This document shows positions 6,334 through 47,742 of a stretch of 57,022 nucleotides of DNA, piece by piece. The notes under the pieces are model-generated. The model was not told the DNA's origin and ran no database searches. It saw only the letters and a list, made by a program, of their open reading frames with translations. This stretch comes from a virus. Numbering within the stretch: the stretch's first letter is position 1; every line of letters starts with the position of its first letter. The stretch lies in UHGV virus genome UHGV-1526745; one strand, given 5' to 3'. The translations under genes were made by a program, and so were the position numbers.

Positions 6334-9300
6334 TTATGCTGTAGTTGATGCGCTGAATGATCCTGTTCCTCTTGATACTAGCATTGTTGGAGAATACAAA
6401 GCTGTACAATATGAGTAGCCTTCTGATGCTGATGTTTGTGGGCAATATATTTGCCCGGTAATACTTGATGCCGTTAAACCAGAAAAAGCGCATTGCACTG
6501 TTAATGTGCATCCACCATAAGGAACGTAATATTGAATTGTTTTACTTTTACCTCCGCAACTAAACGTTACGTTATAAGTTGATCTATATTCACCAGATGC
6601 TAATGAAATCGTCGCCATAAGCATAACTGATTTCCTCAATGGACTATCCGTGCTGTCGTTATATGTGATGGTTGCGTTATAACTTCCGTTATACCCAAGC
6701 ACTCGATCTGGACCAACCCCCATGTTAGCAACATCACCAACAAACGTTTTAGCTTCCACCGTTCCTGTGAATTTACCGCTACTTGCATACACCTTGCCCC
6801 TTACAGTTACGTTGTTGAACTCCGCGTTGCCATTTTTATCAATCATCCACCCGGCAGATCCTGATGCGTAGTTTGTTGACTGTATTCGCTGTGCAATCTT
6901 AGCGGTAGTGATAGCTGCATCTGCAATTTTAGCCGTCCCTATTGATGCGTCTTTAATAAACGCTTCGCGCACATACATTGCGCCATTGGTGACATAGAAA
7001 GGCGATTGATATGTGCCGTTTGCCGCAGTCATTAACACGAAGCGATCAACCAGGAAAATACACTGCGATTGAAAGTTAGTCCCGTCACCAGTAAGGCCAA
7101 GCGACATACCTGTTGCGTATGTTCTGCCGTTGCTATCTGTTGCCAGCTTGATTGAATACGACGCATCTACATTACCTTTAAAGTCGGTAAGCGCTTTCGA
7201 TGTTGTCTCTATAGCGGTTTTGTTCCCGTTAACGGTCACTGTCAACTGATCAATTTTGCTTGATAATGCTTCGTCAGCCGTTGCCATAGCCTGCGACCAT
7301 TCCGTGATGCTTGAATTTACATCTTCGAAAGACGCCGAGATCTGGACAAATTTTTCAGCGCTTGATGCCTCGTGATTTGCGAGTGCCGTTGAGACATCCA
7401 TTATTTTTGCTGAAATGTTTTCATTAATATTTGCCTCAAGCGATGCTATAGCCTCCGCGCGGGCCTGGGTTTCGTCTGCTATTGCTGTATCGATCCTTGC
7501 TATTTCCGCTTTTGTTTTTATCTGGCCTTTCCTGTATTTCGCCTCAATAACAGTGCCCATCTTGCTTTGCGCTATTGAGTTGTTGATAAGTGCAATCGAG
7601 GCGTTTTGCAGACTTGCTTTCGCCTGTTCTATCTTGTCGCTGTTTTTATCAACATCACTTTCAACAGAACCAAGCTCCGCGCTGATGCCTGATATTGCCT
7701 GTGCGCGGGCGCTTGATTCATCGGCAATCGCCTGATCCAAGCGTTTAACGCTGGCGTTCGTGCTATTTTCAAGCGTTGTTAAATCAGCCTTAACATCCGT
7801 TATTGCGTCGCTTCTTGCCTGCGTTTCATCTGATATTGCTTTATCAAGGCGGGAAACGCTGGCGTCAGTTTTCTTATCAAGATTGCTTATTGCTGCGTTT
7901 ACACCGTTAATAGCTTCAGCGCGGGCGCTGGCCTCGTCAGCAACTGCGCGTTGCACGTTAGAGATTTGGCCTTTAAGGTTGGAATCCATCGTATTCATTT
8001 CTGCCGTGATGGTTTCCAGTGATTCCGCAGTCGCTTTTTTCTCTTCAGCGATAACGTTGTCAATACGGTCAATTTCCGCCTTCGTCTCTGTTCTACCTTT
8101 TTTGTACTGAGCGGTAAGAGTTACACGGGTGTTAGTCTGTGCAAGTGAGTTATTAATAAGAGCAATAGAAGCGTTTTGCAGGCTTGCTCTTGCTTGCGCC
8201 AGTTCGCTGTCAACTTTTTCGCTAGATACCTCCAGCGAGTCTATTCTAGACTCATGCTGTCCAATATCATCGGCGTTTTCCTTAACCTTTTTATAAAGAT
8301 CTTCCGTTTCTTTTTTAAGTGTATCCGTGTCAGCTTTTATTGACCCTGTTTCTGTGATTAGGTTGTCAGTAGCAGTTTTAAGGTCATTCGTAGCGCTTTC
8401 GATAAGATCGGTGCGGTCGCCAAGATCCTTAATATCACTTACCATTCCCTTAAATTGCTCTGAATTCATCACGTCTTTGGTGACGTAATCGGTGATTTCA
8501 TCAAAGTTTTCTGTTGGCTTGCCTGATGCTTCAACGAAGTCTGACACACCAAAGGCATTACGCGTGCGCACATAAACGTAATAGGTGTGCCCCGTGTTCA
8601 TGCCGCCAAAAGTCCACTGATGACCACGCCCGGTATATTGTGCTTTAGTGGTTACTGATGCCGGATCGGTGATTTGTGTTTCACCTGAGTAATAAAACTC
8701 ATAACTAGTGTCAGTGGTAAGCGTTGTTCTGCTGATCGGGTAAACTGTAGCCTGAAATACACCGGGAACCCAGTTAACTCCTACCGGGGCCGCTGGTGCG
8801 CCAATAACCAGATCCACAATGCTTTCCGCACCCTTCATGCCCGTGTCATTTCTGCCACGAATGCCTAGTGAGTAGTTGCCAGCATCAATACCATAAAAAT
8901 CATAACTGTAATTCGTAGTTTCGTAGCTTTTAACTACGGCCCCCTCTGAATTATATACGCGGATTTCAAATGTCAGGCGATGAGTTGTCGTCAGTGTTTC
9001 CCATGTTGCGCGGCATTGAACTGTTTCAGATCCAATATTTAACACCTTCAGGTTTTCAATGTTCGGTACGCGGAAGTGATTAAGCGTGTCGTTGTTGACC
9101 TCAAAGATTGCGCCATTATCTACTACAGCCTGTTTGTGCGGGTCATGCTGTGATGCCTCTACAGTGTACACGCTATTATTTTCTGTTTCTGCTACGCTGG
9201 TGATTCGACACAATACGGGTTTTGCTGCGTTAGTTGACACAGCAAATACAGTACCGTTACGAATCCATGCCGGGGCGGATGCAAGGGTAATTTTATTTCC

Positions 9301-10914
9301 GCTAACTCCGGTGATCTGGTGTTTTTTAAATTTGCCATCACTATCAAGCAGGCTGATGGTGTCACCAGGGGCGATATATTCAGAATCAACTTTATCGACC
9401 GTGATAACCCTGCCATTGTTTGCCACGATGCGACCGCCTAAACGAGCGCCTGCGCGGTTATTGTCGAGTATCTCGATAATATCACCAGGGGTGAAGTGAA
9501 TTGCGTCACGGGCCATTTTAAACGTGAATTTTGACGGCTCGCGTTTTGCTGTTTCTATCAGCCATTTGCCAGCGCGGTACGCTTGCCCGCGTGACGTGCA
9601 ACCGAAAGCCTCTAGCGTGGTTTCGTTATAACCATCGCGGGCGATCAGTTCATCATCTGCCACATATTCTTTTGATTGCTCCCAGCCGTTTTCTGGGTCA
9701 GTCCATGATACGATCACGGCGTTGTAACATTCTGCAAGCGGAAGGCTTGAGCGAGTAAACGCGCCATCAACGACGTTTGCATTTGTGATGGTGGCAATTG
9801 GATCTTGTGGCGCATCAATCATCACGGTAAGGCGTTGCCCGTCCCATAACGCGATGCCACGGAACATACCTGCGATGTTATCCAGTAGGTCGCGGGCGCT
9901 CATTTGCTCCGTAATGTAAGCGTTGAGAGTCATGCGAGGTTCAAGGCCACCATAGCCATCATCAACCAACTGATCGCAGTATTGAGAAAGCACATACAAA
10001 GCGCCATCATCAACATCAATGTAACCAGCATGTCTAGCAAGCCCAAAGCGCTCGTTTTTAACCAGATACCGGAAAATCCACGCAGGGTTATTGGTGTACG
10101 CTTTTTTGAATCCACCAAGCCATAAACCCGAATATGTGCGCGTTTCTGTGTTGTAGTTATCAGGAACATCAACAATCAGGCCGCGAAGGTGATAGGTACG
10201 GGTGGGCGTATCAGTATACTGATCATGGTCAATTACAGCGCCAGCCACGGCGGTATGAGGATAAGACAGGTTATCATCTATTATTTCGCTGTAACTACTC
10301 CACCGCGTATCATTCCGCAATAGATCGCTGTTGCTGTCTGCTGTTATGCGACGAACGCGAATATCAAACGGCTTTTCATCAGGCGCGTTGATAACGTGAG
10401 CTTCCAGGTATTCACCACTCTGTTTACCAGGCCCGATTGTAATGTATTTAACAGGCGACCACGTCGATGATAATGATGGCTTAACATCAACCATTAACAC
10501 AACGGATGTATTGTATTGATTGCCCTTATCATCTGACTGAACGAGAGCATCAACACCAAGATTCAACCTGACGCGGGTAACGTTTGGATCTGAAACAGTC
10601 CTGATTATTGGCGTGTCGTGAGTTACCTTTGCGTTGACGATAACGGTTGATTCGATGGCATTAAAACCATTAATCGGCGATTGGTCAGCCGTGCCGTTGC
10701 GCCAGGCTATACTAATCCCCGGGATTGATGTATTCCCGTTTGCGTCAGTAACAGGTGTGTCATTAAGCATCACATCATTTAGTGGCGCCTTCTGGTTTAC
10801 CGGACCGTATATCGGCCCTTCGCTGAGAATATCTAAAACACGATAAAACTGTTTATGATACAGGTTATCGTTTAATAATACTGGTGTCTTGGCTTTGCCG
10901 CCGCCGCTACTCAT
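6334..10914 (-). CDS. host specificity protein J-like central tail fibre / tip protein
   Basis: 1526-aa ORF at lambda J position after I/K/L homologues; long coiled-coil repeat segment in middle. Confidence 0.85.
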   Translation of the reverse strand: MSSGGGKAKTPVLLNDNLYHKQFYRVLDILSEGPIYGPVNQKAPLNDVMLNDTPVTDANGNTSIPGISIAWRNGTADQSPINGFNAIESTVIVNAKVTHDTPIIRTVSDPNVTRVRLNLGVDALVQSDDKGNQYNTSVVLMVDVKPSLSSTWSPVKYITIGPGKQSGEYLEAHVINAPDEKPFDIRVRRITADSNSDLLRNDTRWSSYSEIIDDNLSYPHTAVAGAVIDHDQYTDTPTRTYHLRGLIVDVPDNYNTETRTYSGLWLGGFKKAYTNNPAWIFRYLVKNERFGLARHAGYIDVDDGALYVLSQYCDQLVDDGYGGLEPRMTLNAYITEQMSARDLLDNIAGMFRGIALWDGQRLTVMIDAPQDPIATITNANVVDGAFTRSSLPLAECYNAVIVSWTDPENGWEQSKEYVADDELIARDGYNETTLEAFGCTSRGQAYRAGKWLIETAKREPSKFTFKMARDAIHFTPGDIIEILDNNRAGARLGGRIVANNGRVITVDKVDSEYIAPGDTISLLDSDGKFKKHQITGVSGNKITLASAPAWIRNGTVFAVSTNAAKPVLCRITSVAETENNSVYTVEASQHDPHKQAVVDNGAIFEVNNDTLNHFRVPNIENLKVLNIGSETVQCRATWETLTTTHRLTFEIRVYNSEGAVVKSYETTNYSYDFYGIDAGNYSLGIRGRNDTGMKGAESIVDLVIGAPAAPVGVNWVPGVFQATVYPISRTTLTTDTSYEFYYSGETQITDPASVTTKAQYTGRGHQWTFGGMNTGHTYYVYVRTRNAFGVSDFVEASGKPTENFDEITDYVTKDVMNSEQFKGMVSDIKDLGDRTDLIESATNDLKTATDNLITETGSIKADTDTLKKETEDLYKKVKENADDIGQHESRIDSLEVSSEKVDSELAQARASLQNASIALINNSLAQTNTRVTLTAQYKKGRTETKAEIDRIDNVIAEEKKATAESLETITAEMNTMDSNLKGQISNVQRAVADEASARAEAINGVNAAISNLDKKTDASVSRLDKAISDETQARSDAITDVKADLTTLENSTNASVKRLDQAIADESSARAQAISGISAELGSVESDVDKNSDKIEQAKASLQNASIALINNSIAQSKMGTVIEAKYRKGQIKTKAEIARIDTAIADETQARAEAIASLEANINENISAKIMDVSTALANHEASSAEKFVQISASFEDVNSSITEWSQAMATADEALSSKIDQLTVTVNGNKTAIETTSKALTDFKGNVDASYSIKLATDSNGRTYATGMSLGLTGDGTNFQSQCIFLVDRFVLMTAANGTYQSPFYVTNGAMYVREAFIKDASIGTAKIADAAITTAKIAQRIQSTNYASGSAGWMIDKNGNAEFNNVTVRGKVYASSGKFTGTVEAKTFVGDVANMGVGPDRVLGYNGSYNATITYNDSTDSPLRKSVMLMATISLASGEYRSTYNVTFSCGGKSKTIQYYVPYGGCTLTVQCAFSGLTASSITGQIYCPQTSASEGYSYCTALYSPTMLVSRGTGSFSASTTA

Positions 10915-11458: not shown

Positions 11459-12138
11459 TTGTCAGATCTCCATATTGAGTTGGTCTGTCGAACATACGCG
11501 GGCCGCATTTGTTCGCGGCGGCTTAACAGTCCGGCATTGTCATGATGCAAAACAGTGTTATCGCCCAGGTAAATCATCGCGTGACATGGGTCAGCGCCTT
11601 TAAACGGCTGGCGGATAATCACATCACCAGGCTGAATACTTTTCGCGTCAACCATGAAAAACCCGTTCAATGGCAGGTTTTTTATGTACAGGTTTTCCCC
11701 ACGCAGCCACCATCCGTCGTGGCGTTCAAAATCCGGTAGATCCACGCCGCAAAGGTGATAGGCGTCACGAAAAAGCGAGTAGCAGTCTGTTTTCCCGTGC
11801 TCAAATTTACGGCCTAACAGGTGCGCCACCGGGCGGAATTTTCTAACCCTGCCACCGGAACACAAATACCACGGCAGGCCTGAAATAACCTGCTGTTGTC
11901 GATCCCGTGCTGACAATACCAACGAATTGTCAGTATGGGAGTGAAAAACGGCAGTTATAACGCCTAATTCGTCAGCTTTGATATAATCGTCAGGCGAGAT
12001 TTTAAAGCTGTTGTGCGGCGTTTCAGACACGTTGGCGCACGGGTAAAAATAATCGTTATCTATCACCAGCCCGCACACTTCCTCGCACTGGTGGGCTGCC
12101 GCATAGCGAATCATTTTATCTTCAAGTGCCATAATCAA
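11401..12138 (-). CDS. tail assembly protein K (lambda gpK-like, NlpC/P60 + JAB-type)
   Basis: 245-aa ORF between L and I homologues; Cys/His motifs consistent with gpK family. Confidence 0.75.
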   Translation of the reverse strand: MIMALEDKMIRYAAAHQCEEVCGLVIDNDYFYPCANVSETPHNSFKISPDDYIKADELGVITAVFHSHTDNSLVLSARDRQQQVISGLPWYLCSGGRVRKFRPVAHLLGRKFEHGKTDCYSLFRDAYHLCGVDLPDFERHDGWWLRGENLYIKNLPLNGFFMVDAKSIQPGDVIIRQPFKGADPCHAMIYLGDNTVLHHDNAGLLSRREQMRPAYVRQTNSIWRSDKCSNLDLRAIFEDITARCV

Positions 12139-12839
12139 CCCACCTTACTGGACCCAGGGAAGCACGAAATCGGTAACGGATTCGGGCGTGGAAAACGCAA
12201 ACGGCAACCGCTAAGGCGGTGGCTGCATTTGTCCAGCTTTGGATCACTGGTAGATTCGTCTTTATCGGTAGCTACAGGTCCACCACTATATCCGCAACCG
12301 TCGCCGCGATATTGCCATTGGCAAACGTCAGCGAGGATTGTGCGCCCTGGGATAACCGCCTTGTCAGCATCAATTGGCGTTGACAGTTCATATTGCACCT
12401 GGTCGGCTGTTTCTTCGCTCATCGCCTCAACGACGTAAAAAGACACCGCCTCGATAGATGGATCTGCATCCGGGTTGCCGTTTGGGAAGTTGATGGCGTC
12501 CAGGTATTTTACTTCCACCTGGCGGCGTGTAACCTTCATTCCTCGCAGGTCGTTGAAATCGTTGTTCATCCCGGTGATTAGCCCGCCAATGTTGGCTACT
12601 ACCATCTGCGGGCGTGAGTAAACGCCTTCGTTTTTCATTTCGAAGCCAGTGGCCTCGATTGGGTAGCTGTTGTAAGTCACTCCCTTCCAGATAACCGGGC
12701 CGTAATAGCCATTCGCTCCGGAATGGAAGCGGATAACCTCGCCACCCATGGGCGTGAGGTCTAATTCAAACAAGTCAATGACCGCGCCGACTCCGGCATC
12801 GACGGAATCAATAATCATCTCTCTCGGAATATTGCGCAT
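12135..12839 (-). CDS. minor tail protein L (lambda gpL-like)
   Basis: Track ORF 12135..12872; ATG at 12839 after AAGGTGAG; C-terminal CxxxxC...C motif and overall similarity to gpL. Confidence 0.8.
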   Translation of the reverse strand: MRNIPREMIIDSVDAGVGAVIDLFELDLTPMGGEVIRFHSGANGYYGPVIWKGVTYNSYPIEATGFEMKNEGVYSRPQMVVANIGGLITGMNNDFNDLRGMKVTRRQVEVKYLDAINFPNGNPDADPSIEAVSFYVVEAMSEETADQVQYELSTPIDADKAVIPGRTILADVCQWQYRGDGCGYSGGPVATDKDESTSDPKLDKCSHRLSGCRLRFPRPNPLPISCFPGSSKVG

Positions 12840-12857
12840 TTTCTCACCTTGTAATTT

Positions 12858-12873
12858 TGTGATCTGCGTCACG
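12858..12873. promoter_or_regulatory. CRP-like binding site TGTGAtctgcgTCACG
   Basis: Matches TGTGA-N6-TCACA consensus at 9 of 10 positions; centred ~63 bp upstream of predicted start of plus-strand promoter at 12893..12921. Confidence 0.4.
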
Positions 12874-12892
12874 CTAAATCATACCAAAACGG

Positions 12893-12921
12893 TTGATCGC
12901 GATTTTTACAATATGTATATT
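12893..12921 (+). promoter_or_regulatory. sigma70-like promoter for plus-strand moron cluster 1
   Basis: TTGATC-N17-TATATT upstream of ATG at 12938. Confidence 0.4.
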
Positions 12922-12937
12922 GTACTCAAAAGGAAGC

Positions 12938-13123
12938 ATGGTTAACAAAATGGCGCTGAGGTGTGAAATGGATGATAAGGTGTGGAGGTTGACGGTGTTC
13001 CTTGCTGATGGCAGGAAAATGACTGTGGCCCTGTATAAAGATGAAGGCGAGGCACTTACCGACGCGCTCTTACTCGCTGAAGATGAACGCGTTTTGGGGT
13101 ACAGGATCGAACCTGTCAAATGA
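12938..13123 (+). CDS. hypothetical moron protein (61 aa)
   Basis: ATG with AAAAGGAAG RBS inside track ORF 12893..13123; opposite strand to tail operon. Confidence 0.4.
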   Translation: MVNKMALRCEMDDKVWRLTVFLADGRKMTVALYKDEGEALTDALLLAEDERVLGYRIEPVK

Positions 13124-13135
13124 GAGGTTAACGAA

Positions 13136-13486
13136 ATGCAAAAATATAGTTTAGAAATATGGACTGATAAGTGTGAATGGGAGCGCATGGGCCTGTTTGA
13201 CACATACGCCGCAGCGCGTGATGAAGGTAGTGAGTTACTTCGCTGTTGGTCTGGCGCTCGTGATTTTGATATTACTCCGGTCCAAGTACCGGACCTGGTG
13301 GAAGAGATGAACCCGAAAGATATTAACTTTAACGTCAATGTTGAATTTGCAGACTCTATGGATCAGGCTTGCCCTGGTGAAATACACGCAAAAGGTTTTC
13401 CGGCTGACGATCCAGAAGCAAAACGAGAATACGAAAAAGCTGCGAAAGACTTCTGCATAGATAACCTGGCCGCATTCGATAAATAA
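13136..13486 (+). CDS. hypothetical moron protein (116 aa)
   Basis: Track ORF; tightly follows previous gene; no family recognised. Confidence 0.45.
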   Translation: MQKYSLEIWTDKCEWERMGLFDTYAAARDEGSELLRCWSGARDFDITPVQVPDLVEEMNPKDINFNVNVEFADSMDQACPGEIHAKGFPADDPEAKREYEKAAKDFCIDNLAAFDK

Positions 13487-13495
13487 GGCGGCAAC

Positions 13496-13744
13496 ATGGG
13501 GCGGCGCAATCACGGCGATTATGTGTACACGCTGAAACAGGCCGCCCGCCTCATCGGTTATCATGAGCACGAATTTATTGATTTGCTGATTGAGCGCGGG
13601 ATACTGTACCAGGTCTGTTTAACGCTGTACCCGAAAGCGAAATACCTACAGGAAAAGTTATTCATCATCATGACGGATGAAAACCAGGTTAATCATTCAT
13701 TCGTCACTGATAAGGGATTGACATATTTGAAGGGGGCGTTATGA
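13496..13744 (+). CDS. hypothetical moron protein (82 aa), possible HTH
   Basis: Track ORF; segment YTLKQAARLIGYHEHEFIDLLIERGIL looks helix-turn-helix-like. Confidence 0.45.
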   Translation: MGRRNHGDYVYTLKQAARLIGYHEHEFIDLLIERGILYQVCLTLYPKAKYLQEKLFIIMTDENQVNHSFVTDKGLTYLKGAL

Positions 13745-13819
13745 GATGTGCGAACATTACGTTCTGGAAATGATCATTATCATTATTGGATTGTTATGCA
13801 TTCTGCTATCGACACTATA

Positions 13820-13847
13820 AACCCCGCCGTGGCGGGGTATTTTTTAA
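13820..13847. terminator. rho-independent terminator ending moron cluster 1
   Basis: Hairpin CCCCGCC-GTG-GCGGGG followed by TATTTTTT. Confidence 0.5.
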
Positions 13848-14056
13848 TCGTAGGATAGAAATGCTACTTCTTTGCCATCCCAAGTCGTACAGCCGATATA
13901 TCCATCACCCATATCATGAAGATACCACGTCTCGCCGTTATCAGCTTGTACAGTTAGATCATTAATTTCATAGTCGGCAAACAATGTAAAAGCGCCAGTG
14001 CGCTCCACTACACAAAAATAAGGCATATCCCCTCCCCTAATTAATAACTTGCTCAA
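13844..14056 (-). CDS. hypothetical protein (70 aa)
   Basis: Track ORF between M homologue and terminator; no family recognised. Confidence 0.35.
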   Translation of the reverse strand: MSKLLIRGGDMPYFCVVERTGAFTLFADYEINDLTVQADNGETWYLHDMGDGYIGCTTWDGKEVAFLSYD

Positions 14057-14390
14057 ATGTTGCGTTTAGCGTGTATAGCGGTCCGTCTTTAGTCATGCTC
14101 CAGCTACGGCAAACAAAAAGCCTTTGCACGTTATCCATTGACGGCGACCAGTAAAAAGCCTCGACCGCGCCGCGCGCCCTCAAGAATGCTTCCGCCTGGA
14201 TTGCTACGTTTTCACCATCACCACATCCGGCGCTACTGCCCTTAAACACCAGGGTGTAGCTATCAAGTAACGGGTTGATACCTTTAACCTGTCTTTGCTC
14301 ATAACCATCGCCCAGCTTAACAACTGATACGTCCGGCTCCCTGGTCACGCTGTAGCTTCGTTGCGGCGTCCATCTGAACACTTCCGGCAT
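14037..14390 (-). CDS. minor tail protein M (lambda gpM-like)
   Basis: MPEVFRW... start after GGGGG RBS; FRW and GDGY motifs and C-terminal FEQVIN resemble lambda gpM (ends FEQVVN). Confidence 0.75.
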   Translation of the reverse strand: MPEVFRWTPQRSYSVTREPDVSVVKLGDGYEQRQVKGINPLLDSYTLVFKGSSAGCGDGENVAIQAEAFLRARGAVEAFYWSPSMDNVQRLFVCRSWSMTKDGPLYTLNATFEQVIN

Positions 14391-14423
14391 AAAACCCCCA
14401 TAAGTCACATTTTGTATATATCT

Positions 14424-14447
14424 TTACGCGCCTCTACGCGAAAAATG
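14424..14447. promoter_or_regulatory. conserved 24-bp element TTTACGCG-N4-CTACGCGAAAAAT (copy 1)
   Basis: Near-identical copy at 27213..27236; both immediately upstream of minus-strand genes (M, portal). Confidence 0.35.
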
Positions 14448-14558
14448 AGATCTTAATCACAATGATTATAGCTAGTTTACAAAATGGCTTCACATAGTGC
14501 GCAACAAGATGTATATAGAAAGCAAGAAGAAAAGCAGTACCAACGAAGGAGGCCAAAA

Positions 14559-14714
14559 ATGAAACGCTATGTAGTGGTAATGCTGAACAACGCATTCGAA
14601 CAAGTGGAAATAGCAATCGTTAAGGGCTTCGACGACGCATTCAAATACGGTCAATTCATGATGAATGCAAAAGAAGATGAATACCGTGATTTCTTCCTGA
14701 AGGCACTCAACTAA
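14559..14714 (+). CDS. hypothetical moron protein (51 aa)
   Basis: ATG after GGAGG RBS within track ORF 14484..14714. Confidence 0.35.
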   Translation: MKRYVVVMLNNAFEQVEIAIVKGFDDAFKYGQFMMNAKEDEYRDFFLKALN

Positions 14715-14731
14715 GGATGATGGGGTGAGTT

Positions 14732-14986
14732 ATGAAACTGGTAGCGATTGATAAAAACCTGAAAGTACAGAAAAACGCACAAGACAGGATTATCAAGAAA
14801 GGGAAGGAACTGCTTAAAGCATTTTTGAAGAAAGAGGCGCGCCCCAAAAAGTTACGTGATGGTTATGGCTTTAAATTCGACATCAACCCTGACTGGAGGC
14901 TGTTTAGCGAAGACCTAAAAGTCTGGTTAATTATCGATCATCTGGAATATAACAGGCACTGTGGAGTCAAAGGGGTGCATAAGTGA
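14732..14986 (+). CDS. hypothetical moron protein (84 aa, Lys-rich)
   Basis: Track ORF; no family recognised. Confidence 0.45.
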   Translation: MKLVAIDKNLKVQKNAQDRIIKKGKELLKAFLKKEARPKKLRDGYGFKFDINPDWRLFSEDLKVWLIIDHLEYNRHCGVKGVHK

Positions 14987-15095
14987 GGTGGGACATGGAG
15001 GACGATAAATTCACCTGGCGGGAGATCTGGAATATTTGGTTGGTGATGTTCGGCAGTGGTTACGTCGCACGTAACGGAAGATTATAGGAGGAAAA

Positions 15096-15281
15096 ATGAT
15101 TATTGACGAAACAGAGTTATGTTACGGAGTTAGGTTAGATCTTGATGAGGATGGTCGGCTATGGATAACCGAACTCATGGGGACTGACACCCTCGTAATT
15201 GACAAATCGCAGGCGACGCAACTTATCGCCGGGCTTCAAAAATTTATAGATGGCACATTTGAGAACGATCAGGAGGATTAA
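15096..15281 (+). CDS. hypothetical moron protein (61 aa, acidic)
   Basis: Track ORF with AGGAGG RBS. Confidence 0.4.
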   Translation: MIIDETELCYGVRLDLDEDGRLWITELMGTDTLVIDKSQATQLIAGLQKFIDGTFENDQED

Positions 15282-15283
15282 CA

Positions 15284-15571
15284 ATGGATTTAACCGTCAT
15301 TGGTCACGCACTGGCTGCGGCGGCTATGCAGGTTGTTATCGGCCTGCTTACTGGTGATTATCTCACTGGCGGCCTGATTGGATGTACATTCTTTTTTGCA
15401 CGCGAACACACGCAGGCTGAATATCGTTACATAGCGGAATTTTGCGGTGGAAAACGGGAAAGAATGCCGTGGTATGGCGGATTATTACCTAAAGCATGGA
15501 ATATGGCTAGCGTTTGCGACTTCGCCGCACCTGTATTCCTGTGCTGTTTGATTTATATTCTCACCATGTAA
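15284..15571 (+). CDS. hypothetical inner-membrane protein (95 aa)
   Basis: Track ORF; two or three hydrophobic segments. Confidence 0.5.
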   Translation: MDLTVIGHALAAAAMQVVIGLLTGDYLTGGLIGCTFFFAREHTQAEYRYIAEFCGGKRERMPWYGGLLPKAWNMASVCDFAAPVFLCCLIYILTM

Positions 15572-15575
15572 AATA

Positions 15576-15596
15576 AAGGCCGCTTATAGCGGCCTT
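15576..15596. terminator. bidirectional rho-independent terminator (after TMP and after moron cluster 2)
   Basis: Hairpin AAGGCCGC-TTATA-GCGGCCTT with T-tract on minus strand and A/T flank on plus. Confidence 0.5.
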
Positions 15597-15600
15597 AGTG

Positions 15601-17946
15601 TTATTTGCGGCGCGGTTGCAACATCCCGCCAGGTCTTTGCGATTCCCTTGTTATCATCTTCATTGCTACACGTTCCATTGTTGATTCAAGTCTGCGGCTG
15701 TCTTCTTCGCTAAATCCGTTTGTGGTTTGAATACTGATACTGACAGGCATACTAAAACCGCCACCGCCGCCAATATCACGACCAGGAATAACCCTGCCGT
15801 TCTCGCCTGGGATCATATATTGGTTGCCGTTAGACGTCTGGAATAGCTCCGGCCTGTTGTGTTCCCCTACGCGGTACATATTGCCACCAATGACGCTACC
15901 ACCATTAAAGCGACCGCCGCCGAAAATTGACGTAGCCAGCGACATGATCGCAGTGAGCGCAGCCGAACCAGCCGCCGCCCAGCTACCGCCAGTTGATGCA
16001 GCCGTTGCCGCCGCCGCCGGGGCCGCCGCCGCCGCGATGCTTCCCTGAGCGGCAACCGCGCTTGCCGTTGTACTTGCTTGAGTTGCCTTGCTTTGTGTTT
16101 CCATCATGATCTGATCTGCTATCCAGTCGGCTGCTATATCAGAAAGTCTGTTGCCAATATTCCCTAGTATATTGCTCCCTAAGTTAGCAAAAACATCGCT
16201 CAATGATTGAGTACCGTTAAGCAGGCCGACAAGCGCATTGCTCATGCCACCTTTAAGGCCATTAACGCAATCACCGATCAGGCCGTTTGTCTGGCTTTGC
16301 GCCTGCCATTGCTCCCATTTCAGATCGCGGATCTGTTGCTCATAGGCTAACAATGCCTGTTTCTGTTGCGCTTCGGTAGCGCCCAGGTCGATAAGCATTT
16401 GCTTACGGACGGCCCATTCATTTTGTACCTGCTGAATAGGGTCAACCTCGCCTTTAAGCTGATTCATCGGGCTTACTATTTGCGCCCATTTATCACGCAA
16501 TTCATCTACCGGAATTTGGGCTAATTCTTCCTTCAGTTCCTTACCTATCCCTTTTTGCGCGGCGCGGTACTCAAGGAGGGTGATTTTACCCTGGGCGAAT
16601 GCAGCATCAATGGCCTTGCCGTTCTCTAACGCTTTGCGCATGGCGGCGGCGTCTTTATTGTACTGGTCAGAAACGCTTATACCCTTGTCACCAAGCGTAT
16701 CCTCTTTGCTTTTCTTGCTGCCACTCTTCTTACCCTTTTTAGGCTTATCAACTGGCTTGTCGAATCCGGTGATCTTGCCGTCGTTGGCTTCTGCCTGTTT
16801 CTGCATAAACTCATCATAAGCGGCAGTCGCGTTTTTAATGTCGTTTGCAAAAGTCATGACTTTACCGACTGTAGGGCCGAATTTCTTCTCATTGTTGCTA
16901 TTTAGTTCTTCCTTGCGCTTATCTACAACCTCCTTCATCCATTTGTAGGCGTCCATAAGTGCCTTGATTGGCATCACCATTGCGATGATCTTCTCTGCCA
17001 CCTCGCCAGCCTTCACAGCCACATCATCAAACATGTCGATGAATTCGCCACCAGCCGTTTTGAGTGTATCGAAGCAGGTTTTAGCGAATTTAGCGCCCTC
17101 ACCTAACCCCTTAACGCCTTTTGTGATTAAGTCGATAGCTGAGACTACGCCATCTGATACGCCGAAAAGATCATCAAGCTGTTCAACAAGACCCATGATT
17201 TCGACTTTAAGCTCATTGATAGCCATGCCGGATGTGCGCGGCAACTGAGCAAACTGCTCGTTTGTTTCCTGCGTAGCCGCCTGGATTGCGTTAACCATCC
17301 TTTCTGCCGTGATCTTGCCGTCCAGCATTTCGGCGCGGAACTGGCCCATAGATAACCCCATCTGACGGGCCATTGTCTGTACGATGGTCGGGGTGTTTTC
17401 AAGTAGGCTGTTAAATTCTTCAGCACGCAGCACGCCGCCGTCTATAGACTGGCGGAACTGGCGCATAGAGTTAGACATCTGTTCCGCTGATGCGCCGCCT
17501 AACGCCCCCATTTTCTGAATAGTGCCAACCAGGTTAAGTAATTGCCCTTCCGTAGCTGACGTGTTCTTCAGTGAGATGGCAAGACCTTGCCATAGCTCGC
17601 CAGTATCCTTCAGGCTTTGCCCCGTTTCCCTGGATATTGCTTTCAGGCCGTCGAAAACCCGTCCGGCGGACTCCGCATCGCCCGTAAGCATTTTGATTTT
17701 TACGCGAAGCATTTTTGCTTGCTCCGCCATATCCATAAATTGGCGCACAGCCTCGGCAGCAATTAGCAAATGGATAACCCTGGTCAGTGCTTTGATGGAT
17801 GTTTTCAGGGTGTTTACCTGGCGGTCAGCCTGTTTTGCGCCGCGCTCTATACGGTCAAAGGCCTGGTCTGCCTGTCGTTGTGCAACGAGAAGTTGACCAG
17901 TTTTTGCATCAACTTCGTAATAAATTGTACCTACACTGGTAGCCAT
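15601..17946 (-). CDS. tail tape measure protein
   Basis: 781-aa ORF, Ala/Gln-rich helical protein at lambda H position. Confidence 0.85.
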   Translation of the reverse strand: MATSVGTIYYEVDAKTGQLLVAQRQADQAFDRIERGAKQADRQVNTLKTSIKALTRVIHLLIAAEAVRQFMDMAEQAKMLRVKIKMLTGDAESAGRVFDGLKAISRETGQSLKDTGELWQGLAISLKNTSATEGQLLNLVGTIQKMGALGGASAEQMSNSMRQFRQSIDGGVLRAEEFNSLLENTPTIVQTMARQMGLSMGQFRAEMLDGKITAERMVNAIQAATQETNEQFAQLPRTSGMAINELKVEIMGLVEQLDDLFGVSDGVVSAIDLITKGVKGLGEGAKFAKTCFDTLKTAGGEFIDMFDDVAVKAGEVAEKIIAMVMPIKALMDAYKWMKEVVDKRKEELNSNNEKKFGPTVGKVMTFANDIKNATAAYDEFMQKQAEANDGKITGFDKPVDKPKKGKKSGSKKSKEDTLGDKGISVSDQYNKDAAAMRKALENGKAIDAAFAQGKITLLEYRAAQKGIGKELKEELAQIPVDELRDKWAQIVSPMNQLKGEVDPIQQVQNEWAVRKQMLIDLGATEAQQKQALLAYEQQIRDLKWEQWQAQSQTNGLIGDCVNGLKGGMSNALVGLLNGTQSLSDVFANLGSNILGNIGNRLSDIAADWIADQIMMETQSKATQASTTASAVAAQGSIAAAAAPAAAATAASTGGSWAAAGSAALTAIMSLATSIFGGGRFNGGSVIGGNMYRVGEHNRPELFQTSNGNQYMIPGENGRVIPGRDIGGGGGFSMPVSISIQTTNGFSEEDSRRLESTMERVAMKMITRESQRPGGMLQPRRK

Positions 17947-17986: not shown

Positions 17987-18027
17987 TATACAAAATGGCT
18001 TTACTTCAACGACTCCATTTTGTATAA
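17987..18027. promoter_or_regulatory. perfect 12-bp inverted repeat TATACAAAATGG-N17-CCATTTTGTATA
   Basis: Read directly; sits between TMP start and plus-strand lipoprotein gene. Confidence 0.45.
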
Positions 18028-18073: not shown

Positions 18074-18733
18074 ATGAAACGGTTAGCAAAAGTGGCAATG
18101 ATTGCGGCGGTATTGGGTCTGGTTGGTTGCAATGAGGATAATGAAAAAGCGCCTATAGTGACCAATCAAGAACAACAAGCATTAGCAGAGAAAAATGCTA
18201 AATGGCTTGCAGAACAACAAGCAAAACAAGCCGCATACGATGCACAGTTAGAAAAAGAAAATGCTGGTAAACAGTGGCTTGTAGTTGAAAGAAAAGATGA
18301 TATGCAGGACGCAAAAAACGTATTCCTTTTTGTGAAAGCAGAACAATTCAGCGGAAGTCTTGATGCTTTCCCGACACTGAAGGCACAGGATAAGAATAAA
18401 CCGGTATTAACAATCGCTTGCCAGGGTAATAAAACAAAAATGTTCGTAGCATGGTCACACCATGTAACTGACGCCGGGGACACTACTTATATTAACTACC
18501 GGATCGGCGTTCACAAAGCTGTAGCTACTGAGTGGGGGCGGTCAACTAATTATAAAGCTCTTGGATTATGGGATGGCAAAAAAGCCATCCCAATGATTAA
18601 AAAAATGGTTAACGAAAAACAATTCATCATTGAAGTAGTGCCGGAAGCTGGCGACATTGAGAAAGCAGTGTTTAACATTGATGGTCTTTATAACCACATC
18701 GACAAAGTGAAAAACGCTTGCAACTGGAATTAA
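18074..18733 (+). CDS. lipoprotein (219 aa) moron
   Basis: Signal peptide with LVGC lipobox; GGTGGG RBS. Confidence 0.6.
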   Translation: MKRLAKVAMIAAVLGLVGCNEDNEKAPIVTNQEQQALAEKNAKWLAEQQAKQAAYDAQLEKENAGKQWLVVERKDDMQDAKNVFLFVKAEQFSGSLDAFPTLKAQDKNKPVLTIACQGNKTKMFVAWSHHVTDAGDTTYINYRIGVHKAVATEWGRSTNYKALGLWDGKKAIPMIKKMVNEKQFIIEVVPEAGDIEKAVFNIDGLYNHIDKVKNACNWN

Positions 18734-18743
18734 GGGGTAAATC

Positions 18744-19118
18744 ATGAAAAACATAATCAAAGCGGCTCTCATTGGTGTTATGGCTTTAGCTCTTACAGGG
18801 TGCGCAAGATCAACTGATTTCGTTAAGTTAGCTGATAAAAAATTGCAAGTTGGAATGACTTGTGAGCAAGTGAATAAAATAATGGGGGAACCACAAAGAA
18901 TCGAGCATGACGGTAATTATAGTTATCACGTATGGTATTCAGTAACCAGCACGATAGGATTTACTTACATGGATGTTGAAGAATTATCCCCTTCAAGGGT
19001 TATCGCAAAGTTTGATAACTGCATCCTAAAAGAATGGAAAGATCGCAGTAAGGCAAAGTCTGTATACAATACAATCACACACAGTTCACCAGGTACAGCA
19101 ATTAAAGATTTCAATTAG
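18744..19118 (+). CDS. lipoprotein (124 aa), BamE/SmpA-OmlA-like
   Basis: Signal peptide with LTGC lipobox; QVGMTCEQVNKIMGEP resembles SmpA/OmlA motif. Confidence 0.55.
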   Translation: MKNIIKAALIGVMALALTGCARSTDFVKLADKKLQVGMTCEQVNKIMGEPQRIEHDGNYSYHVWYSVTSTIGFTYMDVEELSPSRVIAKFDNCILKEWKDRSKAKSVYNTITHSSPGTAIKDFN

Positions 19119-19864: not shown

Positions 19865-20341
19865 TTATGCTGCTGGGATGTCGCCAACCGTCACCTTGCC
19901 AGCACTTGAACACTCAATGGACCAGGTGGAAACGTCGTCGTTAGGGTCTTCTTCTTTAAAGGAAGTGCAAAGAAACGGACCTTCAGTCACATCAGCCGGG
20001 GAAACAATTTTAAGCCAAACATATGGTTGCGATCCGGTTGTTTCGCCTGGGTTAATAACGTGGCGTTTAAGTGCCTTCTGATTATGAATTTCTTCAGTAC
20101 GGGATACGCCGTCACCTGAGAAAGAAACAGATTTGTAAGTGACAAGTGATTCTTTGGTGTAGTCTGCTGATTTATCAGCGGTGGCGTCTGCGGTTTCCCA
20201 TTCTACGGAAAGCGTTTTGCCGCGCATCATGCCTAACGCTTTATAAGAGCCGTCTTCAGGTTTCACGTTAGGACAAGCGATAGCGTAGAATACAGCAACG
20301 TCGCGGCCTAAAAACGCGCCTTTTTCGCAAGTCTGAGACAT
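19865..20341 (-). CDS. major tail protein (positional)
   Basis: 158-aa ORF upstream of chaperone/TMP. Confidence 0.55.
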   Translation of the reverse strand: MSQTCEKGAFLGRDVAVFYAIACPNVKPEDGSYKALGMMRGKTLSVEWETADATADKSADYTKESLVTYKSVSFSGDGVSRTEEIHNQKALKRHVINPGETTGSQPYVWLKIVSPADVTEGPFLCTSFKEEDPNDDVSTWSIECSSAGKVTVGDIPAA

Positions 20342-27212: not shown

Positions 27213-27236
27213 GTTTACGCGTTGCTACGCGAAAAA
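27213..27236. promoter_or_regulatory. conserved 24-bp element TTTACGCG-N4-CTACGCGAAAAAT (copy 2)
   Basis: Directly abuts portal start codon. Confidence 0.35.
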
Positions 27237-38873: not shown

Positions 38874-39033
38874 AATGCTCTCTCCTTTTTCAGGTGATTT
38901 TTACGCATTTCAGCGTTACCGGATTTTTAAAGAGCATTTTGTTTGTTTGAAGTATACAAAACGGATACATGCGAACAAACAATAAAGCGCCATTATGTGA
39001 TCCGCATCACACAATGACGCCATTTTGTAAACA

Positions 39034-46289: not shown

Positions 46290-46750
46290 AATCTGATCTC
46301 CGTATATCCTTGATGATACTTAATAAAAAATCATCTTCGTTAATTGCCGCACTTCCAGCGGCTGACCAGATTGTTAATGAGCGGCTTAACATCTTTCAAC
46401 TAATCCCGCAATCATCGCCGTTCCCGGCGTGACCTTGCTCACTCCAAGCAAGCTGACTCGTCGCCTTGCGTGCGGTTTCGTGGGGGATGTAACGCTTTAA
46501 ACACCCCATGCGCCTTGTTATCAGTGCCGCTTTCGGTCCCCCATCGGGGAGTTACTCCACGGTTGACAAGGTGTTAAGCCTGATTTTTAAAGTGCCAGGA
46601 AGTTGCTTTTGTTACCTGCGCCCTTCCTTTGACTCGCAATATACGCCCCGTAAAACATCGAGTCAATCCATTTTGTATACTTTTTTAAAATATTTTATAT
46701 GCCATTGATATTTAAATAATAAATAACGTTTTCTGTTTACGTTTTGGTGT

Positions 46751-47439: not shown

Positions 47440-47742
47440 CGCTACCCTATAACCTCAAAAAGTTTGATGCAAGTCACAAAACGTGTATTTTAAGCCTTGA
47501 TCTTAAAATTCCATTTTGTAAACTTGCAGACAAGGTAAGGCCATACTTGCAAAGACGCAAGGAAAAAGATAACGGAAGGCACAAAAAGGCACTTACCTTA
47601 TGCTCTTTAAAAATCCGGTGTCGCTGCGAAGCGAAAAACAAATATCACGCAACGGCGGGATCTGTTGAGCGGTCAGTCACTGCTATCTAATGCTAATGGG
47701 ATGCCCGCCCGCGCGTTCACTCTAACCATAGGAGAAAATGCG
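47440..47742. promoter_or_regulatory. right operator/promoter region
   Basis: Divergent intergenic region; inverted repeats CTTGCAGACAAG and CTTGCAAAGACGCAAG (47523..47562) plus CCATTTTGTA motif. Confidence 0.4.

What the first reader, a model, noticed from the sequence alone, without database searches (positions are those of the whole stretch)
14409..15600. Moron cluster 2 between tape measure and M genes (four or five small plus-strand genes incl. membrane protein)
Lambda has nothing between H and M. Here there are plus-strand ORFs of 51, 84, 61 and 95 aa (plus a possible 29-aa peptide MEDDKFTWREIWNIWLVMFGSGYVARNGRL at ~14995..15084). The last is a predicted inner-membrane protein, followed by a bidirectional terminator. 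The upstream spacer carries CACATTTTGTATATA and TTACAAAATGGCT motifs in inverted orientation.
Basis: inference. Interest (0 to 1): 0.6.

Follow-up and report, generated by a model that had tools for sequence, protein, structure and literature searches.

The report
Accessory mini-operon splitting phage tail genes
Five tiny genes, one with the fold of a RelE/ParE-type toxin, sit backwards between two tail genes of an E. coli prophage as a swappable add-on cassette; this is an ordinary kind of phage "extra" whose function has not been tested.

Summary
Window 14391-15600 lies between minor tail gene M (14037-14390, minus) and the tape measure gene (15601-17946, minus). It carries five tightly packed plus-strand genes, each under purifying selection: orfA 51 aa, orfB 84 aa, orfC 30 aa (not 29), orfD 61 aa and orfE 95 aa. 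A 9-bp G+C hairpin follows them.

The window is an mEp021-type (mEpimmI) E. coli prophage. In a sister phage group the tape measure stop abuts the M start, so the cluster is an insertion at a hot spot.

orfB is present in every relative, and orfA in nearly all. The genes after orfB are shuffled mini-cassettes.

A classical toxin-antitoxin pair is doubtful. Three relatives, including the prophage of E. coli UMNK88, keep orfB intact without orfA. orfA and orfB do not co-vary. Distant orfB relatives are lone early genes of T7-like and jumbo lytic phages.

That motif sits directly upstream of sigma-70-like promoters, including this operon's.

Expression in the lysogen is untested.

The parts
14037..14390 (-). 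Left flank: minor tail protein M (ATG at 14390, GGGGG ribosome-binding site; the GTG at 14408 is an upstream extension)
   Evidence: Pfam PF05939, E 7.5e-28. mEp021 gp69 is annotated as 354 nt.
14391..14558 (.). 168-nt divergent spacer, 37% G+C, with blocks conserved in all relatives
   Evidence: Alignment of 42 unique spacers; G+C content.
14408..14418 (-). Left copy of the phage-wide motif (reads TATACAAAATGt on the minus strand), 18 nt upstream of the M start.
   Evidence: Changes in this arm among relatives are not compensated in the right arm.
14422..14440 (.). Direct repeat CTTTACGCG / CTCTACGCG, 10 nt apart, conserved in relatives; role unknown
   Evidence: One other exact TACGCG-N4-TACGCG lies at 27216.
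14476..14487 (+). Right copy of the motif (TTTACAAAATGG), immediately upstream of the candidate -35 hexamer; UP-element-like or a regulator site
   Evidence: TACAAAATGG has 7 exact copies against 0.17 expected. The PR-like promoter (46668), cluster 3 (17989) and, in degenerate form, cluster 1 share the same motif/-35/-10 layout.
14489..14517 (+). Candidate sigma-70 promoter TTCACA-17-TATATA; predicted transcription start near 14524
   Evidence: Best conserved candidate: mean 8.9 of 12 matches in all 42 unique spacers, including the orfA-less variants. The rule-based scan does not report it because position 6 of the -10 hexamer is A.
14559..14714 (+). orfA, 51 aa, pI 5.1, an orphan family restricted to mEpimmI phages (phrog_29810); candidate partner or modulator of orfB
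   Evidence: pN/pS 0.08. No Pfam, NCBIfam, PADLOC or PDB match. Present in 45 of 47 relatives. Absent from L007, L008 and E. coli UMNK88.
14732..14986 (+). orfB, 84 aa, pI 9.9, a RelE/ParE-superfamily fold (Pfam PF24732 ParE_like); the universal anchor gene of the island
14995..15087 (+). orfC, a 30-aa Trp-rich peptide; a mobile mini-gene
   Evidence: pN/pS 0.12 over 22 unique sequences. Full-length in at least 21 loci. A 62%-identical copy lies in an unrelated lytic-phage-like contig, L052.
15096..15281 (+). orfD, 61 aa, very acidic (pI 4.05); a variable cassette (phrog_13627)
15284..15571 (+). orfE, 95 aa, a membrane protein with two hydrophobic segments (phrog_1443); a rare cassette
   Evidence: Hydropathy. 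Found in only 4 of 47 relatives. Homologues 54-59% identical lie after the side tail fibre gene of lambdoid phages; phage 21 gp24 is annotated as a membrane protein with 2 transmembrane domains.
15576..15596 (.). G+C-rich hairpin shared by the converging cluster and tape measure transcripts
   Evidence: A hairpin is present at this position in every relative, in four sequence types, with a compensated pair GGCCGC/GCGGCC versus GGCCAC/GTGGCC.
15601..17946 (-). Right flank: tape measure protein
   Evidence: Pfam PF20155, E 1.9e-49.

Best explanation
What it is: a five-gene accessory operon of the 'moron' type. It is inserted at the tape measure|M junction of an mEp021-type (mEpimmI) temperate siphophage integrated next to abgT in an E. 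coli-like chromosome.

Transcription (inferred): it is transcribed against the tail genes from its own sigma-70-type promoter, TTCACA-17-TATATA at 14489-14517. Immediately upstream of the -35 hexamer sits a motif, TTTACAAAATGG, that recurs at other promoters of this phage. The unit ends at a hairpin it shares with the converging tape measure gene.

Anatomy (shown): the island has a constant head and a variable tail.
- The head is orfA, a 51-aa acidic orphan protein, plus orfB, an 84-aa basic protein with a RelE/ParE-superfamily fold (PF24732).
- The tail is a set of interchangeable mini-genes. Here they are a 30-aa peptide, a 61-aa acidic protein and a 95-aa inner-membrane protein.

Most likely mechanism (inferred, not shown): orfB acts like its structural relatives RelE, YoeB, YafQ and HigB, interfering with translation as a ribosome-associated mRNA endonuclease or ribosome binder. 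It would serve host manipulation or competition with other phages. orfA tunes it but is not indispensable. The downstream cassettes are independent add-ons. None of the five is needed to build the virion.
For: Identity of the phage: megablast to mEp021, MagusPhagus and 34 E. coli prophages. An integrase next to abgT lies at the window's right end.

An insertion:
- In 50 loci of a sister group (M 67-72% identical), about 20 have the tape measure stop within -1 to 2 nt of the M start.
- The rest hold unrelated small inserts, and none has orfA or orfB.

Coding: pN/pS is 0.08-0.18 in frame and 0.86 or more out of frame.

Constant head, variable tail:
- orfB is in all 47 relatives and orfA in 45.
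- Content after orfB ranges from an 87-nt remnant to 1.5 kb, built from at least 6 recurrent cassettes.

orfB fold and family:
- Pfam PF24732, E 7.9e-11.
- AlphaFold2 pLDDT 87, pTM 0.75.
- K40, L41, R56 and H70 invariant, and K23 and N74 nearly so, down to 23% identity.
- pI 9.9.

Promoter:
- It is the best conserved -35/-10 pair in all 42 unique spacers.
- It shares the motif / 1 nt / -35 / 17 nt / -10 layout with the scan-detected PR-like promoter TTGACT-17-TATATT.
- The promoters of the other two opposite-strand clusters in the tail region have the same layout.
- The motif has 7 exact copies against 0.17 expected.

Hairpin: conserved in structure across four sequence types.

G+C content: 43% against 48-51% in the flanks.
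Against: - No expression data exist, so both the promoter and the timing (lysogenic or early lytic) are inferred.
- The rule-based promoter scan does not call the promoter.
- The hairpin lacks a good U-run on the cluster's own strand.
- Neither RNase activity nor toxicity can be read from the sequence.
- The published mEp021 virion proteome is given only as a figure, so absence of these proteins from the virion could not be checked.
Confidence: 0.55

Rival explanations
1. orfA-orfB is a classical type II toxin-antitoxin module. orfA is a labile antitoxin that neutralises the RelE/ParE-like toxin orfB and autoregulates the promoter. The pair is expressed from the prophage and gives abortive infection or prophage stabilisation. 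The downstream genes hitch-hike.
For: - Gene order and sizes fit: a small acidic protein (pI 5.1), then 17 nt, then a small basic RelE/ParE-fold protein (pI 9.9), in one operon.
- The pair is kept in 45 of 47 relatives, both under strong purifying selection.
- The spacer holds conserved repeats that could be operators.
- Some prophages carry a truncated orfB beside an intact orfA (E. coli PAR; P0033-P0042).
- NCBI's PGAP pipeline already names orfB 'ParE family toxin-like protein'.
Against: - Three genomes lack orfA precisely but keep an intact orfB with all invariant residues and the promoter: L007, L008 (from an isolate genome) and the complete genome of E. coli UMNK88. The UMNK88 copy is 10% diverged from L007.
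- An identical orfA protein is paired with orfB variants differing by up to 38%, and distances are uncorrelated (r = 0.04).
- orfA matches no antitoxin or DNA-binding family. It is more conserved than orfB, the reverse of the usual pattern.
- Distant PF24732 members stand alone among early genes of T7-like and jumbo lytic phages, with no conserved small partner.
Confidence: 0.22
2. The operon is not a lysogeny-expressed moron. It is an early lytic unit, switched together with the PR-like early promoter through the shared TACAAAATGG motif. orfB then works as in lytic phages, as an antitoxin-free host-takeover or anti-defence factor made right after infection or induction.
For: - The same motif and promoter layout occur at the PR-like promoter just downstream of the repressor gene and its terminator. 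That promoter is conserved in mEp021 upstream of gp16 and the N-like gp17.
- The closest non-mEpimmI relatives of orfB lie in early regions of lytic phages. P0106 is immediately upstream of a T7-type RNA polymerase, P0101 lies near a T7 gp0.4-like gene, and others are in jumbo phages.
- This reading explains why orfB is tolerated without orfA in lysogens.
Against: - The motif may be only an UP-element-like A-tract of constitutive promoters. It fits 7 of 9 positions of the proximal UP subsite consensus as I recall it.
- The repeated words that cluster around the repressor gene (ACTTGCA, three within 80 nt; the TTGACTCG/CGAGTCAA repeat at PR) are absent from this spacer.
- Opposite orientation inside a late operon, closed by a hairpin, is the usual arrangement of lysogenic-conversion genes (my own knowledge).
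Confidence: 0.3
3. The small proteins are tail assembly or structural factors, for example chaperones for the tape measure or tip complex, and are required for virion assembly.
For: Only their position between the tape measure gene and M.
Against: - They lie on the opposite strand to all tail genes.
- They are absent from the sister group with the same M and tape measure arrangement.
- Content varies between near-identical phages, down to orfA-orfB alone.
- orfE homologues sit in a different place in lambdoid phages.
- orfB has a toxin-type fold.
Confidence: 0.03

Closest known systems
Morons of lambdoid phages (for example HK97 gp15, lambda bor and lom; concept of Hendrix and colleagues; my own knowledge, review PMC3594210 listed)
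   Same: Extra genes lie between late genes that are adjacent in related phages. They have a candidate promoter and a terminator-like hairpin of their own, somewhat lower G+C, and mosaic distribution. A small inner-membrane protein sits next to the tape measure gene, as with HK97 gp15.
   Different: This is a five-gene operon with a constant two-gene head and a shuffling tail, not a single gene. Expression from the prophage is not shown. No sequence similarity to gp15, Bor, Lom or any PADLOC defence model.
RelE/YoeB/YafQ/HigB ribosome-dependent mRNA endonuclease toxins of type II toxin-antitoxin systems (PDB 7nbu, 4q2u, 3bpq, 2a6q, 4ls4)
   Different: No significant sequence similarity. Only one long helix before the sheet. 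No recognisable antitoxin partner. The partner gene is dispensable in nature. Catalytic residues cannot be mapped.
Pfam PF24732 ParE_like proteins of lytic phages (Klebsiella phage RaK2 and K64-1 gp471 'YafQ-like ribonuclease toxin', Yersinia phage fHe-Yen9-04, T7-like contigs)
   Same: Same Pfam family. Best structural matches in BFVD, TM-score 0.72-0.78. Same invariant residues.
   Different: Those genes are solitary, co-oriented early genes of lytic phages. Here the gene is in a temperate phage, in a unit opposed to the late genes, and usually preceded by orfA. No family member has been characterised (no paper found).
PaaR2-PaaA2-ParE2 prophage toxin-antitoxin system of E. coli O157:H7 (PDB 5cw7, 5czf)
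   Same: A prophage-borne ParE-superfamily protein preceded by a very small acidic partner.
Phage 21 gp24 / phrog_1443 membrane proteins of lambdoid phages
   Same: orfE is 54-59% identical to them and also has two transmembrane segments.
   Different: In lambdoid phages the gene follows the side tail fibre gene on the late strand. Here it is the last gene of the opposed cluster. Function is unknown in both.

Membership tests
Moron (accessory transcription unit inserted in a late operon) | Flanking genes are adjacent in related phages that lack the insert | tested here: met
   In the sister group (M 67-72% identical) the tape measure stop lies within -1 to 2 nt of the M start in about 20 of 50 loci. 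None has orfA or orfB.
Moron (accessory transcription unit inserted in a late operon) | Own promoter | tested here: inconclusive
   A conserved TTCACA-17-TATA(T/C)A has the same upstream motif and spacing as the PR-like promoter. The rule-based scan does not call it, and there are no transcript data.
Moron (accessory transcription unit inserted in a late operon) | Own terminator | tested here: met
   A hairpin at 15576-15596 folds at -15 to -16.7 kcal/mol. It is present in every relative with compensatory change. Caveat: the U-run on the cluster's strand is weak.
Moron (accessory transcription unit inserted in a late operon) | Expressed from the repressed prophage | not testable with these tools
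   No transcriptome is available, and the mEpimmI paper does not address these genes.
RelE/ParE toxin superfamily (orfB) | Significant match to a family model of the superfamily | tested here: met
   PF24732 ParE_like, E 7.9e-11, 42.2 bits against a cut-off of 24.4, covering model positions 2-67 of 67.
RelE/ParE toxin superfamily (orfB) | Characteristic alpha/beta fold | tested here: met
RelE/ParE toxin superfamily (orfB) | Catalytic or target-binding residues, and toxicity | tested here: inconclusive
   K40, R56 and H70 are invariant and Y73/N74 nearly so. They cannot be equated with RelE or YoeB residues (hhalign not significant). Toxicity cannot be tested here.
Type II toxin-antitoxin module (orfA-orfB) | Two adjacent co-oriented small genes, antitoxin first | tested here: met
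   orfA stop at 14714, orfB start at 14732, each with its own ribosome-binding site.
Type II toxin-antitoxin module (orfA-orfB) | An intact toxin is always accompanied by its antitoxin | tested here: not met
   L007, L008 and E. coli UMNK88 carry an intact orfB without orfA.
Type II toxin-antitoxin module (orfA-orfB) | Antitoxin belongs to a known antitoxin or DNA-binding family | tested here: not met
   No hit for orfA in Pfam, NCBIfam, PADLOC or PDB sequence searches. Its only family is the orphan phrog_29810.
Type II toxin-antitoxin module (orfA-orfB) | Toxin and antitoxin inherited and diverging together | tested here: not met
   An identical orfA occurs with orfB types that differ by up to 38%. 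Distance correlation r = 0.04.
Type II toxin-antitoxin module (orfA-orfB) | Antitoxin binds and neutralises the toxin | not testable with these tools
Superinfection-exclusion membrane proteins (orfE) | Small inner-membrane protein | tested here: met
   Two hydrophobic segments, residues 3-23 and 74-95. The phage 21 homologue is annotated with 2 transmembrane domains.
Superinfection-exclusion membrane proteins (orfE) | Homology to a characterised exclusion protein, or an exclusion phenotype | tested here: not met
   No Pfam, NCBIfam or PADLOC match. phrog_1443 has no known function. The phenotype cannot be tested here.

The most novel reading that the evidence does not exclude
PF24732 is a phage-specific branch of the RelE/ParE superfamily that works without a dedicated antitoxin. 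It would be a translation-targeting effector used by lytic phages (T7-like, jumbo) as an early host-takeover or anti-defence factor. Here a temperate phage has domesticated it under a PR-type promoter that carries a phage-wide regulatory motif. The orphan 51-aa orfA would be a new kind of optional modulator. Converging late transcription through the cluster would switch the unit off late in infection.
Probability: 0.25. Interest if true: 0.55.

Novelty: new member of a known kind. Interest (0 to 1): 0.35.

Why it matters
If orfB is active, it would give a function to an uncharacterised, phage-restricted branch of the RelE/ParE toxins that is shared by temperate, T7-like and jumbo phages. It would also show whether such a toxin fold can be carried by a lysogen without a fixed antitoxin.

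The island is also a clean natural example of how a junction between tail genes acts as a docking site where tiny genes are swapped. E. coli gut prophages of this group are common.

The promoter-associated motif TACAAAATGG gives a handle on the still undescribed transcription programme of mEpimmI phages.

As it stands, the finding is an ordinary accessory cassette with untested function.

Tried and rejected
- Sequence searches of orfB and its profile against PDB chains found nothing relevant.
- NCBIfam gave no hit for any of the five proteins. PADLOC gave only one insignificant hit.
- The first AlphaFold2 run used a shallow alignment of close relatives and gave pLDDT 53, so I discarded it. A second run with distant PF24732 members gave pLDDT 87.
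I therefore make no claim about residue-by-residue equivalence with YoeB.
- A scan of one-genome-per-species contigs for orfB found none.
- Exhaustive HMMER against 1.84 billion representatives gave only 10 hits.
- The afdb50 fold library was unavailable.
- Rfam gave only a sub-threshold match to P9 sRNA over the cluster-1 terminator.
- The mEpimmI paper and its supplements do not mention these genes, so the virion proteome could not be checked.
- Literature searches for PF24732, YafQ-like phage proteins, solitary phage RelE proteins and prophage ParE morons found nothing specific.
- I considered the 76-aa reading of orfA from ATG 14484 and rejected it, because the extension varies in length and is absent in many relatives.
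Arm changes are not compensated, the repeat is marginal by chance, and the motif is genome-wide.
- I considered the motif as a translation start and rejected it, because the ATG inside it opens mini-ORFs of random length (my own reading of the flanking sequences).
- I considered a minus-strand promoter at 15109-15081, which scores 10 of 12, and rejected it. It is built from the orfC stop and the orfD ribosome-binding site and is not kept in L007.
- I considered orfC as an alternative antitoxin. Every locus has orfA or orfC, but only one deletion lineage bears on this, so nothing can be concluded.
Full report
**What is there.**
The tail genes of this window run on the minus strand. They are J (6334-10914), I, K, L (12135-12872), M (14037-14390) and the tape measure gene (15601-17946). 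Pfam confirms L, M and the tape measure protein.

Between M and the tape measure gene lie five plus-strand ORFs, each with its own Shine-Dalgarno sequence and only 2 to 17 nt apart:
- orfA 14559-14714, 51 aa
- orfB 14732-14986, 84 aa
- orfD 15096-15281, 61 aa
- orfE 15284-15571, 95 aa

A 9-bp hairpin at 15576-15596 follows, four bases before the tape measure stop codon.

Compared with relatives, all five ORFs show pN/pS of 0.08-0.18 in their own frame and 0.86 or more in the other frames. They are therefore real genes, including the 30-aa peptide.

**Where the window comes from.**
- The region matches mEp021, MagusPhagus and mEp010/044/515/554 at 82-85% identity, and 34 E. coli prophages.
- These are the 'mEpimmI' temperate siphophages described in PMC11893012. 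That paper does not discuss these genes.
- The right end of the window is an integrase next to host abgT, so this is an integrated prophage.
- mEp021 encodes a Q-like late regulator. This plausibly lets late transcription read through the hairpins that bracket the opposite-strand clusters. That step is inference.

**It is an insertion at a hot spot.**
I anchored on M and fetched 80 viral contigs.
- The 30 mEpimmI loci all carry orfB.
- In the next group (M 67-72% identical, 50 loci), the tape measure stop lies within -1 to 2 nt of the M start in about 20 loci, as in lambda.
- The others in that group hold unrelated 300-490-nt inserts. These are a 70-aa same-strand gene, 79-aa or 132-aa opposite-strand genes with their own hairpin, and a 33-aa peptide.
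- None of them has orfA or orfB.

**Constant head, variable tail.**
- Across 47 relatives, orfB is universal and orfA is present in 45.
- Downstream of orfB, content ranges from 87 nt (a remnant of the orfC 3' end plus the hairpin) to 1.5 kb in mEp021.
- This tail is assembled from recurring mini-cassettes: orfC (at least 21 loci), a 56-58-aa gene absent from the window (21 loci), orfD (18), a 49-aa gene (6), orfE (only 4), and unique genes in mEp021.
- Every locus keeps a G+C-rich hairpin just before the tape measure stop. It comes in four sequence types and includes a compensated base pair.
- G+C content is 43% against 48-51% in the flanks.

**orfB.**
- Pfam places it in PF24732 'ParE-like toxin domain' (E 7.9e-11). 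NCBI's PGAP pipeline already names it 'ParE family toxin-like protein'.
- HMMER against 1.84 billion representatives finds only 10 relatives.
- A profile search added members at 23-50% identity. With these, AlphaFold2 gives a confident model (pLDDT 87, pTM 0.75).
- Foldseek ranks YoeB first (probability 0.97, but E 0.067 and TM-score 0.49).
- Against viral models, the best matches are jumbo-phage 'ParE-like toxin domain' proteins (TM-score 0.72-0.78).
- K40, L41, R56 and H70 are invariant, and K23 and N74 nearly so.
- The protein is strongly basic (pI 9.9).

I conclude that orfB has a RelE/ParE-superfamily fold and is closer to the ribonuclease branch. Activity is inferred only.

**Is orfA-orfB a toxin-antitoxin pair?**

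For:
- The order, sizes and charges fit (pI 5.1 then 9.9).
- The pair is co-conserved.
- Some prophages have a truncated orfB next to an intact orfA.

Against:
- Two viral contigs (L007, L008) and the complete genome of E. coli UMNK88 lack orfA precisely. They retain the promoter region and an intact orfB with all invariant residues. The UMNK88 copy differs by 10% from L007, so this arrangement is old and viable.
- One and the same orfA protein is found with orfB variants that differ by up to 38%. Their distances are uncorrelated (r = 0.04).
- orfA matches no antitoxin or DNA-binding family.
- Distant PF24732 genes are solitary members of arrays of small co-oriented genes in lytic phages. These include jumbo phages of the 121Q, PBECO4, K64-1 and RaK2 type. 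One lies directly upstream of a T7-type RNA polymerase, one lies near a T7 gp0.4-like gene, and one is on a ParAB plasmid-like contig.

A defining feature of a type II module is that the toxin is always accompanied by its antitoxin. That feature was tested and not met, so I do not file the pair as a toxin-antitoxin system. I keep it as a rival at about 0.2.

- The 9-nt inverted repeat is real but marginal on its own, since 4% of shuffles reach that length. Changes in the left arm among relatives are not compensated.
- The motif is not private to this spacer. CATTTTGTATA with up to one mismatch occurs 17 times against 2.3 expected. TACAAAATGG occurs exactly 7 times against 0.17 expected.
- In three of the seven copies the motif is followed, after one base, by a -35-like hexamer and, 17 nt later, by a -10-like hexamer:
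  - TATACAAAATGG-A-TTGACT-N17-TATATT at 46668 on the minus strand. This is a scan-detected promoter just downstream of the repressor gene and its terminator. It is conserved in mEp021 upstream of gp16 and the N-like gp17.
  - TTTACAAAATGG-C-TTCACA-N17-TATATA here.
  - TATACAAAATGG-C-TTTACT-N17-TATAAG in front of the lipoprotein cluster at 18074.
- The cluster between L and M has a degenerate copy, CATACCAAAACGG-TTGATC-N17-TATATT.
- The TTCACA-17-TATA(T/C)A pair is the best conserved promoter candidate in all 42 unique spacers.

It could be an UP-element-like A-tract or a regulator site; I cannot tell which. The left arm lies 18 nt before the M start and leaves no room for a promoter.

Because the layout is shared with the PR-like early promoter, expression could be early-lytic rather than lysogenic. 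The word repeats that cluster around the repressor gene are absent from this spacer, which argues mildly against direct repressor control.

**The other genes.**
- orfE has two hydrophobic segments. It is 54-59% identical to a membrane protein that follows the side tail fibre gene in phage 21 and many lambdoid phages. Its function is unknown (phrog_1443).
- orfD is very acidic (pI 4.05), and its function is also unknown.
- orfC is a Trp-rich 30-mer. A 62%-identical copy lies in an unrelated lytic-phage-like contig that also carries a PF24732 gene 2.5 kb away.

**Verdict.**
This is a structurally typical accessory ('moron'-type) operon at a tail-gene junction. The new information has three parts.
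- Its anchor gene is a RelE/ParE-fold protein of a phage-restricted family.
- That gene is probably not part of an obligatory toxin-antitoxin pair.
- Its promoter belongs to a phage-wide motif family.

The function and the timing of expression remain untested. Interest is modest.

Noticed in passing
window 14478, 17989, 18015, 39020, 46668, 47511, 51643 (exact copies); 17 sites with up to 1 mismatch of CATTTTGTATA: The phage-wide motif TACAAAATGG has 7 exact copies against 0.17 expected. It lies directly upstream of sigma-70-like promoters at three sites, including the PR-like promoter TTGACT-17-TATATT at 46666-46638, next to the repressor gene. It may be an UP-like element or the site of an unidentified regulator.
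   Followed up: partly
window 17987-18026: A perfect 12-nt inverted repeat, TATACAAAATGG-N16-CCATTTTGTATA, lies in the divergent spacer between the tape measure start (17946, minus) and a plus-strand gene at 18074. Each arm supplies a -10-like TATAA(G/A) for the opposite promoter candidate.
   Followed up: partly
window 18074-19118 (+): A third opposite-strand cluster sits inside the tail region. It encodes two lipoprotein-like proteins: 219 aa with a VasI (type VI secretion) domain, E 1.4e-15, and 124 aa with weak BamE/DUF7738 matches.
   Followed up: partly
window 12873-13843 (+): Another opposite-strand cluster lies between L and M. It ends in an 82-aa KilAC-type antirepressor fragment (PF03374) and a hairpin at 13821-13838. 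Its promoter TTGATC-17-TATATT is preceded by a degenerate copy of the motif.
   Followed up: partly
L052:1460-1546 and L052:4001-4267: A lytic-phage-like contig carries a 62%-identical copy of the 30-aa orfC peptide and a 47%-identical orfB homologue, 2.5 kb apart. Both mini-genes therefore circulate outside mEpimmI phages.
   Followed up: no
L136:3388-3489, L094:3388-3489: In the sister phage group, a 33-aa hydrophobic peptide (MADFFEHYSWLLWILFPVFTLLVGYMSGRGWLS) sits just upstream of M on the late strand. Its composition and C-terminus (GY.S/A..G..L) loosely resemble orfC.
   Followed up: no
window about 38950-39032 (mEp021 20078-20152): Two inverted motif copies flank a long hairpin that mEp021 annotates as TERM_4. 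The hairpin contains a perfect CRP-like palindrome, TGTGATGCGGATCACA, downstream of the cytosine methyltransferase gene where the paper places nutR2.
   Followed up: no
L056:2027-2188 (E. coli PAR) and L026:3001-3231: orfB is truncated to 53 aa in the E. coli PAR prophage and frameshifted in one viral contig, while orfA stays intact. This may be occasional decay of the toxin-like gene.
   Followed up: partly
window 15585-15587 versus L006: The hairpin loop is inverted between otherwise near-identical loci (GCCGCTTATAGCGGC here, GCCGCTATAAGCGGC in L006 and L017).
   Followed up: no
window 47440-47560 and 46630-46666: Three copies of ACTTGCA/TGCAAGT lie within 80 nt upstream of the repressor gene, and an 8-nt inverted repeat TTGACTCG/CGAGTCAA brackets the PR-like promoter. 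These are candidate immunity operators, and no paper I found describes them.
   Followed up: partly
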